Of a stretch of DNA of 64,000 nucleotides, positions 18,842 to 24,462 are shown piece by piece; position 1 is the first letter of the stretch, and each line of letters begins with the position of its first letter. The position numbers and the translations under genes are program-made. The DNA is taken from the NCBI GenBank assembly GCA_030390025.1, contig CM059429.1, forward strand, positions 102,424,001 to 102,488,000. The letters are read 5' to 3'. A model generated the notes under the pieces. It did no database searches. It had not been told where the DNA came from and worked only from the letters and a program-made list of their open reading frames with translations. Source of the stretch: Squalus acanthias (taxonomy: Eukaryota).

Positions 18842-18970
18842 ACATACAAAAGAGGTCTTACTCTATGCCTCTCCAGGATCCAACTGATCAGCCCAGTATT
18901 TATCCTGGACTAATCACAGGAAGTGATGTAATAAAGTTCGAGTCACAGGAAGCTGTATTGTGTTACCACA
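18842..18970 (-). repeat. 3' LTR, missing the last 65 nt
   Basis: Matches 22230-22358 with a single substitution. Confidence 0.9.
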
Positions 18971-21900
18971 TTCTCCCCCCCCAAAAGATTAGGAGGCCGG
19001 GATGAAGTTCGAGTCACAGGAAGCTGTATTGTGTTACCACATTCTCCCTCCATTTCGTAGCCGCTGGACGAGGGAGAGCCGCACCCGTTTGGGTTCTCGT
19101 AGCGGTAGAGGGCCCCTAGCCCGTTTACCCGCCGTGGGCCGTGGACCAGAGTCCGAGTGATCCAGCCCGCTCTGTGAGGGGTCAGGACGATCCTGACTGT
19201 GCACTGGTGCCCGAACGGGTGTCGGGCATGTATGAGTATACCACCCGAGGGGCGGAAAAACTGAGGTTTCAATTCCGCACAGACTCTGCAGTCCGAGCAC
19301 ATCTTCTTTACATCCCCGGTAGAGAATGGGAGATTTCGGGACCGCACGAAGTGTAGCATGCGAGTAACGCCCGGATGACACAACCCATCATGGATGTCTA
19401 CGAGCGTAGAGGATGCCATGGCGGAGCAGAATGCTCGTGTGAGGGTATCCGGAGCCACATTCTCCTTGCCAGGTCGATAGTGGATGGTGTAACCAAAAGA
19501 GGCCAATTCCAGCCGCCAAAGCTGGATTTTATTATTTTTAATTTTGGTCCGTTTTCGATTATCGAGCATGAAGGCGACCGATCGCTGGTCCGTGATTAAG
19601 GTAAAGTGCTGGCGAGCTAGGAGGTGACTCCACTTCCGTACTGCCTCTATGATGGCTGTAGCTTCTTTCTCGACTGGAGGATAATGTAGCTCAGCCCCTT
19701 GAAAAGTCCTGGACAAAAATGCCACCGGACGACCTTCCTGATTCAGAGTGGCCGAGATCGCCACCTCCGAGGCATCACACTCAACAACAAAAGGAAGACT
19801 CTCATCGATGGAGTGAAGAGCCGCTTTCTCCAACTGTTTTTTCAGGAGGTTAAAGGCTGCAACAGCCGCTGTGTCTAGTGGGAATGTGCTGGCCTTCAGT
19901 AGAGGTTGGATTCGGTCCGAGAAGTTAGGAATCCATTTAGCATAGTATGCAAACAGGCCGAGGGCCCGGCGCAAGGAGGCCGGATTCTTAGGTGGCGGGA
20001 GTTCTTGGAGTGGGCGAAGCCTTTCAGGGTCAGGTTTAATGATGCCATTGCCCACACAATAGCCAAGGATGTTGATGGTTGGTTGTGACTCAATGGATTT
20101 AGCCGCATTTAATGTCAAATTACGGTGCTGGAGTGCATCCCAAAATCGTTGGAGATTGGCGTCATGTTCCCGCTGATTGCGACCTGCGACAGTAATATTG
20201 TCCAGATAAGGAAACGTATCCTTTAAGTCTTCCTGTTTGACCAGGTCATCCATTGCTCGCTGGAAGACAGCCACTCCATTGGTGACCCCAAAGGGGAGGC
20301 GACAAAATTGATACAGCCGTCCATTGGCTTCAAAGGCCGTATACTGCTTGTCTGAGACCTTCAAGGGTACCTGATGATAGGCACTTTTCAGATCATATGT
20401 TGAGAACACCGTGTACTCAGCCAGTTTATTAACCATATCATCGATGCGCGGCAATGGGTATGCGTCCAAGTCCGTATATTGATTGATGGTCTGTGAATAG
20501 TCAATGCACAGCCGTTTCTTGTGAGGTTGTAGAGGGTTCTTAACAATAACGACCTGGGCGCGCCATGGCGACGAACAAGGCTCGATGATATCCTCTGCTA
20601 AAAGCCGAGAAATCTCAGCCGCAATAAAAGACTGGTCTTCCTGACTGAAACGTCGTGACTTTGTTATAATCGGTTTGCATCGAGGAGGGATACTGGTAAA
20701 CAGTGAGGGTTCATCCAGTGAAGCTGCTGACAATGCACAGAACGGTAATCGAGGTCGTATATTAGAAATAGTGAGTTCAGGTTTGGATCCGCCGAACTCA
20801 ATGGTGAGCTTCTTATGCTGCTTTTGAAAATCCAGCCCTAAGATAAGATCACTACATAAGTCCTTGAGCACCGAAAGCCGGGTGGAGGGATACCTGTGAC
20901 CATTAAGTGTTATTTCAACCATACAAAAGCCAGAAATTCTGGTATTAAGTGATGACTGAGCCATCGCAATTGCCTGGTCAGATGGGAAAACATGTAGCTT
21001 TAACTCTGCAACAATCTGTTCCCTAATGAAACTATCAGTGCTACCTGAGTCAATTAAGGCATCTAAAGTATGTCCATTAATTGATGCTTTTGTAGCTGCA
21101 TGGAATAGGTTCTGAGGACAAGCAGCTGTAATTGGTGTCGTTGCACAAAGAGTGGCTGAAACTCTAGGTGTGTTTCTTCGAGAGAAAACCCGAGAGGAAG
21201 CACGATAGATTTTAGCCGGAACATCTTGATAGGCCCTTACCGGGGCAGTTCGGTAGGACTTAGCTTGATAAGCCCTCGTAGAGGCTCTTGATAGGCAAAC
21301 CTTTGCAAAATGACCCTTTTTGTTGCAATGACTGCAAAACGCATTGCGAGCAGGGCAGAATTTCCGAGGGTGAAACTCATCACCACAAAAGAAGCATTTC
21401 TTAGATTGCCAAGAGGCTGCCACAGTGGGGTCATCATCCTCTTCATCAGTGAAGTCATCAGATTGATCGTCAGGGATAAAGTCCTCCCTAATAGAGTTCA
21501 CCTGTGGCCTCTTAAATTGCCTGACTGTAGTTAAGGCAGCAGACCGAGGTCTGGGCACTGTATAAAGGTCTGCATTTCTTTTTGCCAGATCTAGAGAGCA
21601 AGCCATGTCATAAGCTCTCTGAAGCTCAAGTGTCTTACTTTCCAGTAGACGCTGGCGTATAAATGGGGAGGCAAGCCCGCAGATGAAAGCATCACGGATC
21701 ATTTCTTCACGGTACAGCTCAGCTGAGGCCGCCTGAAAGTTACAGTCCATACTAAGTCTGCGAAGCTCTTGGAGGAATTTATCAATGGATTCCTCCGGCC
21801 CTTGTTGGGCTGTAGCTAGTAGATGTCTGGCATAGACCTCATTCGGTGTCTTAGTATATAGTCTTTTAAGCGTCCGAATTGCCTCCTCGTAACTGCCCCA

Positions 21901-22086
21901 TTCCTCGACATACTGAAATACATTCGGGGTGACACAGTTGATGAGTATCCGCAATTTTGAGTCATCATCAGCCTTGCAATATTCGAGAAAATTGTCAAAC
22001 GTGCGATACCAGTGTTTCCACACCTTACCGGCTGCTGGGGTGTTTGGGTCCAAGTCAAGACGCGATGGTTTAAGGATGTTTTCCAT
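18943..22086 (-). CDS. Gypsy gag-pol polyprotein (Gag with two zinc knuckles, protease, RT, RNase H, integrase HHCC only)
   Basis: CFFCGDEFHPRKFC and CSHCNKKGHFAKVC; ALIDSGS; RLCIDY, DLKSAYHQ, PFGVTNG, YLDN; VECDASE, VEKEATAI, TDQRSV; HDGLCHPG..CSDCRVC. Homology ends after HARHPF (about 19215). Confidence 0.93.
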   Translation of the reverse strand: MENILKPSRLDLDPNTPAAGKVWKHWYRTFDNFLEYCKADDDSKLRILINCVTPNVFQYVEEWGSYEEAIRTLKRLYTKTPNEVYARHLLATAQQGPEESIDKFLQELRRLSMDCNFQAASAELYREEMIRDAFICGLASPFIRQRLLESKTLELQRAYDMACSLDLAKRNADLYTVPRPRSAALTTVRQFKRPQVNSIREDFIPDDQSDDFTDEEDDDPTVAASWQSKKCFFCGDEFHPRKFCPARNAFCSHCNKKGHFAKVCLSRASTRAYQAKSYRTAPVRAYQDVPAKIYRASSRVFSRRNTPRVSATLCATTPITAACPQNLFHAATKASINGHTLDALIDSGSTDSFIREQIVAELKLHVFPSDQAIAMAQSSLNTRISGFCMVEITLNGHRYPSTRLSVLKDLCSDLILGLDFQKQHKKLTIEFGGSKPELTISNIRPRLPFCALSAASLDEPSLFTSIPPRCKPIITKSRRFSQEDQSFIAAEISRLLAEDIIEPCSSPWRAQVVIVKNPLQPHKKRLCIDYSQTINQYTDLDAYPLPRIDDMVNKLAEYTVFSTYDLKSAYHQVPLKVSDKQYTAFEANGRLYQFCRLPFGVTNGVAVFQRAMDDLVKQEDLKDTFPYLDNITVAGRNQREHDANLQRFWDALQHRNLTLNAAKSIESQPTINILGYCVGNGIIKPDPERLRPLQELPPPKNPASLRRALGLFAYYAKWIPNFSDRIQPLLKASTFPLDTAAVAAFNLLKKQLEKAALHSIDESLPFVVECDASEVAISATLNQEGRPVAFLSRTFQGAELHYPPVEKEATAIIEAVRKWSHLLARQHFTLITDQRSVAFMLDNRKRTKIKNNKIQLWRLELASFGYTIHYRPGKENVAPDTLTRAFCSAMASSTLVDIHDGLCHPGVTRMLHFVRSRNLPFSTGDVKKMCSDCRVCAELKPQFFRPSGGILIHARHPFGHQCTVRIVLTPHRAGWITRTLVHGPRRVNGLGALYRYENPNGCGSPSSSGYEMEGECGNTIQLPVTRTSSRPPNLLGGENVVTQYSFL

Positions 22087-22164
22087 GATGGGTGATTCCC
22101 TGGATCCTTAGTTCCGAGTTCGTCCAAAAAGTTTGAGTGCGAAGTTTTTCAAAGTTGATTAAAT

Positions 22165-22358
22165 TGTCGTAAGAATGAGCCTTACGCGTGGTGAACTTAA
22201 AGTAAGCTTTAATCAACTAAAAAGGTGCTACATACAAAAGAGGTCTTACTCTATGCCTCTCCAGGATCCAACTGATCAGCCCAGTATTTATCCTGGACTA
22301 ATCACAGGAAGTGATGTAATAAAGTTCGAGTCACAAGAAGCTGTATTGTGTTACCACA
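22165..22358 (-). repeat. 5' LTR (194 bp)
   Basis: Minus strand TGTGGTAAC...CTTACGACA; TATA-like GATAAATA and ATTAAA poly(A) signal. Confidence 0.9.
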
Positions 22359-24462
22359 ACCGCTCCATCACCTTTCTCAACCCTTCCACTACCTCTGCGC
22401 TGTCAGCCTGCTTGTCCAACATTCAGTCTTGGATGAGCTGCAATTTCCCTAAGCTAATCATTGGGAAGACCAAAGCCATTATCTTTGGCCCCTTCCATAA
22501 ACTCCATACCCTTGCTACTGACTCAGCCACTGATCACACCATCCTCCTCAAACGCCTCTCCTCCGTCCTCCAGCTGGGTGGGACTGCCCTCAACTGGTCC
22601 ACTCTTATCTATCCAATCGTAGCCAGAGAATCACCTGCAATTTCTTCTCTTCCCTCTCCCACACCGTTACCTCTGGAGTCCCCCAAAGGATCTAACCTTG
22701 GCCCCCTCCTATTTCTCATCTACATGCTGCCCCTCGGCAACATTATCCAAAAACACAACGTCACATGCCACATGTACGCTGACAACACCCAGCTCTACCT
22801 CACCACCACCTCTCTCAACCCCTCCACTGTCTCTGATTTGTCACCCTGCTTGTCCGACATCTAGTCCTAGATCAGCAGAAATTTCCTCCAACTAAATATT
22901 GGGAAGACCGAAGCCATTGTCTTCGGTCCCTGCCACAAACTCCATTCCCTAGCTACAGACTCCATCCCTCTCCCGGGTCACTGTCTGAGGTGGAACTAGA
23001 CTGCTCGCAACCTTGGCATCCTATTTGACCCTGAGGTGAGCTTCCGACCACATATCCGCTCCATCACTAAGACTGTCTACTTCCACCTCCATTACATCTA
23101 CTGTCTCTGCCCCTGCCTTAGCTCACCCGCTGCTAAAACCCTCATCAATTCCTTTGTTACCTCTAGACTTGACTGCAGGGCTACGGACCAAGAGCTGGGG
23201 AGTGGGTTTAGGCTGGATAGCTCTTTGTTGGCCGGCACGGACACGATGGGCCAAAATGGCCTCCTTCCGTGCTGTAACATTCTATGATTCTATTCTATGA
23301 TTCTATTCCAGTGCTCTCCTGGTTGGCCTCCCATCTTCCATCAGCTTGAACTCATCCATAACTCTGCCACCCGTGTCCTAACTCGCACCAAATCATGTTC
23401 ACCCATCACCCCTTGTGCTCGCTGACCTACATTGACTCCCGGTCCAGCAACGCCTCAATTTTAAAATTCTCATCCTTGTTTTCAAATCCCTCTACGGCCT
23501 CATGCCACCCCACCCCCGCCGCTGATCTCTAATCTCCTCCAGCCCTACAACCCTCCGAGATCTCTGAGCTCCTCCAATTCTGGCCTCTTGCGCCTCCCCG
23601 ATTTTAATCATTCTACCATTGGCGGTCGTGCCTTCAGCTGCATAGGCCCTAAGCTCTGAAATTCCGTCCCTAAGCCTCTCCTCCTCCTTACCTCTCTTTC
23701 CTCCTTAACACCTACCTCTGTGACCAAGTCACCTGTCCTAATATTTCCTTATGTGGCTTGGTGTCAAATTTTATTTGATAACACTCCTGGGAAGCTCCTT
23801 AAGACATTTTATTATGTTAAAAATGCTATATAATTGCACGTTGTTGTTGTCTCAGGTTGAACTAGACAGTTTGCAATCTCCGCGTCCTATTCGACCCCAA
23901 GCTGTGCATCCAAACCCAGATCCTTTCTATGACAAAGACTGCCCACTGCCACCTCCATAACATCACCCGCTTCTGCTTCTGTCTCAGCCATACTGCCACA
24001 GAAAGCCTTATCTATGCCTTTGTCACCTTCAGACTTGACTATTCCAATGCTCTCCTGGCCAGCCTCCCATCCTCCATAGTCTATACACTTCAGCTCATCC
24101 AAAACTCTTAGCCTATATCCCATCCTGCGACAAGGAAGGCTCACCCGTCACCACCTGTGCTCATTGGCTCCAGGTCCCCTGACACATCAAATTTAATCCT
24201 CATCCTCACATTTCATTTCCTTCATGGTCTTGCTTTCCATATCTCTGTAACCTCCTCCAGCCCTACAACCCCCCCCCCCCCTCATTTCTCCCCCCCCCCC
24301 ACCTACCCCTCACATGCCAAACACTCCATTCCTCTGACTCTGGCCTCTCATGCATTCTCTCCCCCCTTCAACCCACTATTGGCAACCATGTTTTTAGCCA
24401 CCTATGCCCCGTGCACTGGACCTGCCTCCCTCTCCTCCTTTAAGACTTGCCTTAAAGCCAAT
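22359..24462 (+). mobile_element. Cluster of L2 LINE RT/3' fragments
   Basis: GSNLGPLLFLIYMLPLG, HMYADNTQLY, IGKTKAI, FVTSRLDY/C, LHWLP-type motifs in about three partial copies. Confidence 0.88.
23175..23305 (+). mobile_element. CR1-type 3' tail inserted into L2
   Basis: GATGGGCCAAAATGGCCTCCTTCCGTGCTGTAAC(ATTCTATG)n interrupts L2 AGACTTGACT|ATTCC. Confidence 0.8.

What the first reader, a model, noticed from the sequence alone, without database searches (positions are those of the whole stretch)
22153..22218. Gypsy element with no tRNA primer site: 11-nt PBS complementary to its own LTR (self-priming candidate)
Seen: directly after the 5' LTR the element strand reads A-TTTAATCAACT (22163-22153) instead of the TGG.. 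of a tRNA PBS. This is the exact complement of AGTTGATTAAA inside the LTR (22218-22208), which overlaps the ATTAAA poly(A) signal; a CGTAAG/CTTACG hairpin lies in the loop between them. Known: Tf1/sushi elements self-prime using the first 11 nt of their mRNA. Inference: here the partner lies far downstream of the TATA-like box, near the transcript 3' end, so priming could come from the 3' R region or a cleaved fold-back. The Gag N-terminus and YLDN RT motif recall the poorly studied 'Smaug' self-primed group (recalled, unverified).
Basis: partly seen in the sequence, partly recalled or inferred. Interest (0 to 1): 0.8.

Follow-up and report, generated by a model that had tools for sequence, protein, structure and literature searches.

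The report
Self-priming animal Gypsy retrotransposon clade
This young jumping gene and its distant relatives carry, where a tRNA primer normally docks, a short sequence that pairs with the element's own end-repeat, so the group likely starts copying itself with a piece of its own RNA, a trick shown by experiment in yeast Tf1.

Summary
Observation confirmed. The window holds a defective copy of a very young Ty3/gypsy family (194-bp LTRs, 5-bp target duplications). One base after the LTR, 11 bases pair perfectly with LTR nt 141-151, which ends in ATTAAA. None of 40 related elements has TGG there. In 17 of 21 elements whose LTR end is fixed independently of the pairing, the site pairs perfectly (11-19 bp) with the element's own LTR; the 4 misses pair at 11 of 12 positions. 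The letters change together on both sides (10 of 13 pairs, 12 sequences). A hairpin starts right after the partner in 19 of 22 representatives. The clade has no chromodomain (0 of 40 proteins) and lacks Tf1's third helix, so it works like Tf1 without meeting the Tf1/sushi tests. Self-priming is likely (about 0.85) but inferred. Start site, poly(A) site and cut site could not be mapped, so 'internal primer', 'first bases of the RNA' and '3' R primer' stay open. The 'Smaug' label could not be verified. The scan has reported this same signature before, in this genome and others.

The parts
22165..22358 (-). 5' LTR, 194 bp, TG...CA
   Evidence: ends fixed by 3' LTRs and target duplications of sibling copies
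22285..22292 (-). TATA-like box (LTR nt 67-74); a second family of this genome has a canonical TATAAATA at the same place
   Evidence: function inferred
22229..22236 (-). two TGTA motifs in a T-rich tract upstream of the hexamer (resembles an upstream poly(A) element; motif role recalled)
22208..22218 (-). predicted self-primer segment (LTR nt 141-151); its last six bases are the ATTAAA hexamer (22213-22208)
22195..22207 (-). hairpin starting at the first base after the primer segment; weak in this family (-0.5 kcal/mol), conserved across the clade; predicted cut site at its foot (22208/22207)
   Evidence: cut site inferred
22168..22186 (-).
22164..22164 (-). one-base spacer; it does not form a Watson-Crick pair with the base after the primer in any of 23 representatives (one G-T)
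22153..22163 (-). primer-binding site, complementary to 22218-22208, no TGG
18943..22086 (-). gag-pol reading frame from the first ATG: Gag with two tandem CCHC knuckles (21396-21295), protease (about 21090-20827), RT with YLDN (20208-20197), RNase H (about 19863-19495), start of the integrase zinc finger; out of register after the deletion
19226..19228 (-). junction of an internal deletion of about 0.9 kb that removes the integrase core in this copy
   Evidence: comparison with a full-length sibling
18971..18982 (-). polypurine tract
18842..18970 (-). 3' LTR, truncated after 129 bp (before the primer segment)

Best explanation
The element is a defective copy of a young Ty3/gypsy family without a chromodomain, whose primer-binding site pairs with a segment of its own LTR, and it likely primes reverse transcription with that segment instead of a tRNA. 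Predicted steps: the 5' leader folds back so that LTR nt 141-151 pair with the PBS. The RNA is then likely cut at the 3' end of that segment (after ...TAAA, at the foot of the adjoining hairpin), by analogy with Tf1 probably by the element's RNase H. The freed 3' end would be extended across the one-base spacer and U5. In this family the segment is probably internal, about 45 nt after a start site set by the TATA-like box (about 60:40 against a start at the helix). The same helix would hide the ATTAAA of the 5' LTR, while the 3' LTR copy, which has no PBS beside it, would serve as poly(A) signal. Copying of the primer during plus-strand synthesis would rewrite the PBS from the LTR, which explains why both sides drift together.
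For: Register: the helix begins one base after the LTR's CA in 17 of 21 elements with an independently fixed LTR end and in 12 of 19 with an inferred end; the 4 misses of the first set pair at 11 of 12 positions. Covariation: 154 of 156 cells paired, 10 of 13 pairs with changes on both sides, 0 of 500 shuffles as high, slid controls 22-51% paired (12 sequences). Among 23 representatives chosen from those that pair there are 19 different 11-mers, and another element's PBS gives a mean stem of 5.3 bp, with 10 of 506 combinations reaching 11. No TGG within 9 nt after the LTR in 0 of 40, whereas older gypsy families of the same genome show TGGC.. a few bases after the LTR in all 6 copies where both LTRs were found. 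Both sides changed together within one family twice: L058 against L061/L125, and one copy in this genome. A hairpin starts exactly after the primer in 19 of 22 (shuffles: mean 2.4, maximum 6). The family copies itself efficiently: 13 of 18 LTR pairs identical, 2,346 matches to the LTR-PBS junction against 22 for the control. Precedent: Tf1's first 11 bases pair with the PBS and RNase H cuts between bases 11 and 12 (PMC7175516, passages); about half of Tf1 cDNA carries the PBS copied at its 3' end (PMC11042837, passages).
Against: Nothing was measured on RNA: no start site, poly(A) site, cut or primer. TATA-like boxes were found in only 4 of 22 representatives, and in one (L102) the box sits 31 nt before the helix, which fits a start at the helix. 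Positions 11-8 of the primer are conserved as A-G-Y-Y, which resembles an initiator (motif recalled) and also fits a Tf1-like start. The hexamer is AATAAA or ATTAAA in only 15 of 23. In the shortest LTRs only 20-23 nt lie between the predicted cut and the LTR end, little overlap for the first strand transfer. The adjoining hairpin is weak in the window's family and absent in that register in the second family of this genome. In folding, the 3' LTR hexamer is only partly free (unpaired 0.10-0.41, against 0-0.17 in the 5' LTR). Of 17 in-genome copies with a changed primer segment only 1 has the matching PBS change, and it is a chimera without target duplication; 2 have both LTRs changed with the PBS unchanged.
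Confidence: 0.72

Rival explanations
1. Exact Tf1 geometry (a sub-case of the best explanation): transcription starts at or just before the helix, so the primer is simply the first 11-19 bases of the RNA and the TATA-like box is not the working promoter.
For: Conserved A-G-Y-Y at primer positions 11-8 with pyrimidines before it; 11-bp helix in this family, as in Tf1; TATA-like box at -31 in L102 and none in 18 of 22; a primer that ends where the RNA begins would give plus-strand synthesis a clean stop.
Against: Pairing continues past position 11 in 21 of 23 at positions 12 and 13, so the RNA must reach further upstream in most families. A canonical TATA box lies 90 nt upstream in the second family and a matching box 74 nt upstream here.
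Confidence: 0.3
2. Self-priming from the 3' R copy of the segment, or from a second packaged RNA: the RNA is cut after ...TAAA near its 3' end and this end anneals to the PBS.
For: The segment overlaps the likely poly(A) signal and is therefore present at the 3' end too. This would leave the 5' R intact and ease strand transfer in families with only 20-23 nt of LTR after the segment.
Against: The 5' copy is 44 nt from the PBS and folds onto it with probability near 1, so it would occupy the site first. The known precedent works in cis at the 5' end.
Confidence: 0.13
3. The helix serves to mask the 5' poly(A) signal (or another RNA function) and priming is done by a tRNA fragment or another cellular RNA.
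For: The invariant part of the helix is the AAA of the hexamer. Some primer segments resemble tRNA D-loop sequence (recalled, not tested). The tRNA test here was thin: only Lys and Cys tRNA genes were retrieved.
Against: Masking does not need the helix to start exactly one base after the LTR end. 19 different 11-mers cannot share one cellular primer. The retrieved tRNAs pair at most 7 contiguous bases with the PBS region, not at their 3' end (-5.9 against -9.8 kcal/mol).
Confidence: 0.1
4. Chance, or a DNA-level inverted repeat kept by palindrome correction, with no role in priming.
For: The arms are A/T-rich and only 44 nt apart; template switching at quasi-palindromes is a known process (recalled) and could explain single concordant copies such as L169.
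Against: Same register and 11-19 bp length across families whose RT/RNase H lie up to about one change per site apart; shuffles never reached the observed stem in any of the 29 passing elements; these active elements have no other primer site.
Confidence: 0.03

Closest known systems
Tf1/Tf2 (Schizosaccharomyces pombe), Tj1 and the Tf1/sushi group of chromoviruses
   Same: PBS directly after the LTR's CA, complementary to about 11 nt of the element's own LTR; no tRNA; Ty3/gypsy gene order; single long frame (PMC7175516, PMC4600332, PMC5341516, bioRxiv 10.1101/2022.12.06.519325; passages).
   Different: No chromodomain (0 of 40); no third 'pretzel' helix (0 of 22); the primer ends in a poly(A)-signal-like hexamer and is followed by a conserved hairpin; probably internal rather than at the RNA start; two tandem CCHC knuckles; YxDN instead of YxDD in most members; LTRs of only about 150-230 bp.
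Plant Tcn1 (gypsy chromovirus) and TAR (copia) lineages, predicted self-primers in REXdb
   Same: Called self-priming from sequence alone by the same rule: at least 10 bp of the 5' LTR complementary to a site 0-5 bp after the LTR (PMC6317226, passages). This element meets that rule.
   Different: Plant lineages; Tcn1 groups with Tf1/sushi and TAR is copia. This is an animal gypsy lineage without a chromodomain.
Mag-type gypsy families (label recalled from the tandem CCHC knuckles and short LTRs)
   Same: Two tandem CCHC knuckles in Gag, short LTRs and compact size, seen in older families of the same genome.
   Different: Those families have a TGG-type tRNA site and YLDD, are about 30% identical in RT/RNase H, and form a separate long branch.

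Membership tests
Ty3/gypsy LTR retrotransposon | LTRs TG..CA, PPT, target duplication | tested here: met
   16 of 18 siblings with an exact 5-bp duplication
Ty3/gypsy LTR retrotransposon | order Gag-PR-RT-RH-IN | tested here: met
   integrase core in 39 of 40 aligned proteins, missing only in the window's copy
Tf1/sushi chromoviruses | PBS complementary to own LTR, no tRNA site | tested here: met
Tf1/sushi chromoviruses | chromodomain at the integrase C-terminus | tested here: not met
   no Chromo family in 0 of 40 proteins at E 0.01; feature as stated in bioRxiv 10.1101/2022.12.06.519325, which says 'usually'
Tf1/sushi chromoviruses | three-helix 'pretzel' leader | tested here: not met
   arm between post-PBS sequence and loop: 0 of 22 above shuffles; U5 stem: 2 of 20
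Tf1/sushi chromoviruses | primer is the first bases of the mRNA | tested here: inconclusive
   no raw reads laid; contigs give no ends; TATA-like boxes point upstream in 2 families and to the helix in 1
Tf1/sushi chromoviruses | RT groups with chromoviruses in a tree | not testable with these tools
   no chromovirus sequence could be fetched. Bit scores only: 171 to Ty3 RT/RH, 181 to a Mag-type copy, 169 to an integrase-before-RT element, 344-745 within the clade
Tf1/sushi chromoviruses | RNase H cuts the RNA duplex to free the primer | not testable with these tools
   needs biochemistry
Mag-type gypsy | tandem CCHC knuckles in Gag (feature recalled) | tested here: met
Mag-type gypsy | tRNA PBS and RT grouping with Mag-type families | tested here: not met
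   no TGG; separate branch from six Mag-type copies in a quick tree; the references were labelled by me from their features, not named elements
   no definition found; Repbase and most subscription journals are not held

The most novel reading that the evidence does not exclude
A widespread animal gypsy clade evolved self-priming independently of Tf1/sushi and in a new layout: the primer is cut out of the inside of the capped leader, its 3' end is the poly(A) signal, and one helix both silences the 5' poly(A) signal and makes the primer, with a hairpin marking the cut.
Probability: 0.4. Interest if true: 0.75.

Novelty: new variant of a known kind. Interest (0 to 1): 0.57.

Why it matters
Among animal gypsy elements, the papers read here tie self-priming to the Tf1/sushi chromoviruses. 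A second, large lineage outside them (1,370 proteins at E 1e-50 or better among 8,000 scored, with named hits in crustaceans, cnidarians, a nematode and a shark) would show that tRNA-free priming arose again, or is older than thought. Such elements would escape control by tRNA fragments and are missed by pipelines that demand a tRNA PBS. A family with over two thousand near-identical junctions in one genome makes the primer directly measurable in host tissue.

Tried and rejected
RNA evidence: no listed holder is on record as RNA; the one raw-read RNA run laid 0 reads (no test); contigs of five runs showed no start, end or poly(A) tail. A search for poly(A)-tailed retrocopies in the genome found 0. 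In-genome test of PBS templating: 17 copies with a changed primer segment gave 14 changed in the 5' LTR only (two pairs of these look like duplicates), 2 changed in both LTRs with the PBS unchanged, and 1 concordant chimera; 14 copies with a changed PBS gave only that same concordant copy. Inconclusive. tRNA test: the genome search returned almost only tRNA-Lys and Cys, so no full tRNA set was tested. Chromovirus references: PF16297 gave no match, and the PF24626 loci that held an RT were endogenous-retrovirus-like, so the tree has no chromovirus; it is also the quick tree, as the careful search did not finish. The protein atlas gave no answer. Viral contigs held no relative. No Rfam match; no tRNA gene in the window. 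Dropped rows: of 89 related loci, 41 lacked the Gag start and 10 had no recognisable LTR end upstream (best stems 6-10 bp or out of register where one was scored); 38 were scored. L111 and L112 were mis-anchored by my script and count as misses. Paper searches that found no description of this clade. The original Tf1 papers, one Tf1 review and one Repbase-classification review were not held, so 'not in print' is not established. No supplements were opened.

Full report
What is there. The minus strand at 22358-18842 is a Ty3/gypsy element. Its frame encodes Gag with two tandem CCHC knuckles, protease, RT (YLDN) and RNase H. This copy is dead: about 0.9 kb with the integrase core is deleted near 19226 and the 3' LTR stops after 129 bp. 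The family is very young. A search with the LTR-leader gave 906 candidates, and the 40 scored were all about 100% identical. Of 20 fetched copies, 18 have a second LTR; they are about 4.48 kb long, 13 have identical LTRs, 16 have an exact 5-bp target duplication and 3 have an unbroken frame. The LTR-PBS junction occurs 2,346 times in the genome, against 22 for the reversed control.

The observation. The 194-bp LTR ends in CA at 22165. After one A, the 11 bases 22163-22153 are the exact complement of LTR nt 141-151 (22218-22208), whose last six bases are ATTAAA. Shuffled LTRs give at most 8 bp. The helix forms with high probability for all four RNA starts tried.

Is it selected? Copies of this family are too alike to tell, so I used relatives. 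Of 89 loci from metagenome and genome contigs, 38 had a Gag start and a readable LTR end; with the window's family and a second family of this genome (about 72% identical in pol, 215-bp LTR) that makes 40. Where a 3' LTR fixes the end without reference to pairing, 17 of 21 have a perfect stem of 11-19 bp starting one base after the LTR, and the other 4 pair at 11 of 12 positions in the same register. Where the end is inferred, 12 of 19 pass; two misses were mis-anchored, one has 15 bp one base further on, and the rest carry mismatches. None of the 40 has TGG after the LTR. On a MAFFT alignment of 12 of them, 154 of 156 cells pair, 10 of 13 pairs change on both sides, no shuffle of 500 comes close, and slid structures pair 22-51%. 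Among 23 representatives picked from those that pair, there are 19 different 11-mers, and each LTR fits its own PBS (mean 13.8 bp) far better than another's (mean 5.3). As a control, older gypsy families of the same genome, also with tandem knuckles and short LTRs, show TGGC.. just after the LTR in the 6 copies where both LTRs were found.

Conserved anatomy. The primer segment ends in AAA in 23 of 23, and the hexamer is AATAAA or ATTAAA in 15 of 23. The spacer base never makes a Watson-Crick pair. A hairpin starts at the very next base after the primer in 19 of 22, against 2.4 expected; it is weak in the window's family. The distance from primer end to LTR end varies from 20 to 67 nt.

Mechanism. 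Shown: the sequence, the register, the covariation and the lack of a tRNA-type site. Inferred: fold-back in the RNA, a cut after the AAA, extension from that end. The precedent is Tf1, where the first 11 bases pair with the PBS and RNase H cuts between bases 11 and 12 (PMC7175516, passages; PMC5341516, passages). In Tf1 about half of the cDNA carries the PBS copied at its 3' end (PMC11042837, passages); such copying would let LTR changes pass into the PBS. Two within-family double changes fit this (L058 against L061/L125; one chimeric copy here), but the in-genome count was otherwise uninformative. Where the RNA starts is open. TATA-like boxes 74 and 90 nt upstream of the helix in the two families of this genome, and pairing beyond position 11 in most families, favour an internal primer. 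A conserved A-G-Y-Y at positions 11-8 and a box at -31 in one family favour Tf1 geometry. Reads did not settle it. I put self-priming of any kind at about 0.85: fold-back at the 5' end 0.72 (internal 0.42, Tf1-like start 0.30) and priming from the 3' R or a second RNA 0.13.

Place among known elements. The RT/RNase H has 1,370 relatives at E 1e-50 or better among 8,000 scored candidates; named ones come from crustaceans, cnidarians, a nematode and a shark (their PBS was not seen). In a quick tree of 37 rows, 20 rows from the scored set form one branch (support 100, stem 1.5 changes per site), apart from six Mag-type copies, one integrase-before-RT element and four retrovirus-like rows; one of the 20 (L086) has only a decayed helix. 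No chromovirus could be included. The RT/RH scores about the same against Ty3 (171 bits), a Mag-type copy (181) and the integrase-before-RT element (169), so it is close to none of them. None of 40 proteins has a chromodomain. Papers describe self-priming for the Tf1/sushi chromoviruses (bioRxiv 10.1101/2022.12.06.519325, PMC4600332, PMC3601003; passages) and predict it for plant Tcn1 and TAR (PMC6317226, passages). Passages of PMC13524379, PMC3587641, PMC5055719, PMC5753468 and PMC5443660 showed no such animal clade; in PMC13383693 'Smaug' is a host gene. Ten searches found no description, but Repbase and most subscription journals are not held, so an existing name cannot be excluded.

Earlier notes of this scan report the same signature: 25 notes in this genome fit the look-up and 47 findings in at least 11 genomes held the words, some of them about BEL/Pao elements. 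They are not independent support; the counts above are my own. Verdict: real, likely self-priming, a new variant of a known kind; interest 0.57.

Noticed in passing
window 20208-20197 and homologues P0001-P0121: The RT motif is YxDN or FLDN in 95 of 121 stored proteins and YLDD in 8 (none detected in 18), although the family is clearly active. Three self-pairing loci (L090, L123, L135) keep YLDD, so the Asn is not required for the signature.
   Followed up: partly
window 19041-19002: A 40-bp copy of the LTR start, preceded by its own purine tract, lies about 71 bp before the real 3' LTR; it is present in all 18 siblings with a 3' LTR. Possibly a relic of a shifted plus-strand start.
   Followed up: no
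G000:C1:566513, 570760, 575007 (L149): Three junction matches spaced 4,247 bp apart, with a PPT before the LTR and a PBS after it: tandem elements sharing single LTRs, like the tandem Tf elements in PMC11042837.
   Followed up: no
L140-L147: A second young family of the same clade in this genome (215-bp LTR, about 4.5 kb, 13-bp helix with the same 11-base core, canonical TATA box).
   Followed up: yes
L156; contigs: A subfamily LTR with about 14 differences keeps the 11-mer unchanged and has an extra A before it, which lengthens the helix to 12 bp.
   Followed up: partly
tree; P0009: The two families of this genome group with proteins labelled from cnidarians and a copepod rather than with the shark-labelled protein, and a metagenome protein is 90% identical over most of RT/RH: a hint of horizontal transfer, not tested.
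   Followed up: no
L131-L139: Nine prokaryote genome bins hold eukaryote-type gypsy elements, probably host contamination.
   Followed up: no
window 22359-23200 and repeats D1-D11: The element sits inside LINE-like RT sequence; the window holds several further dispersed LINE- and SINE-like repeats (labels recalled).
   Followed up: no
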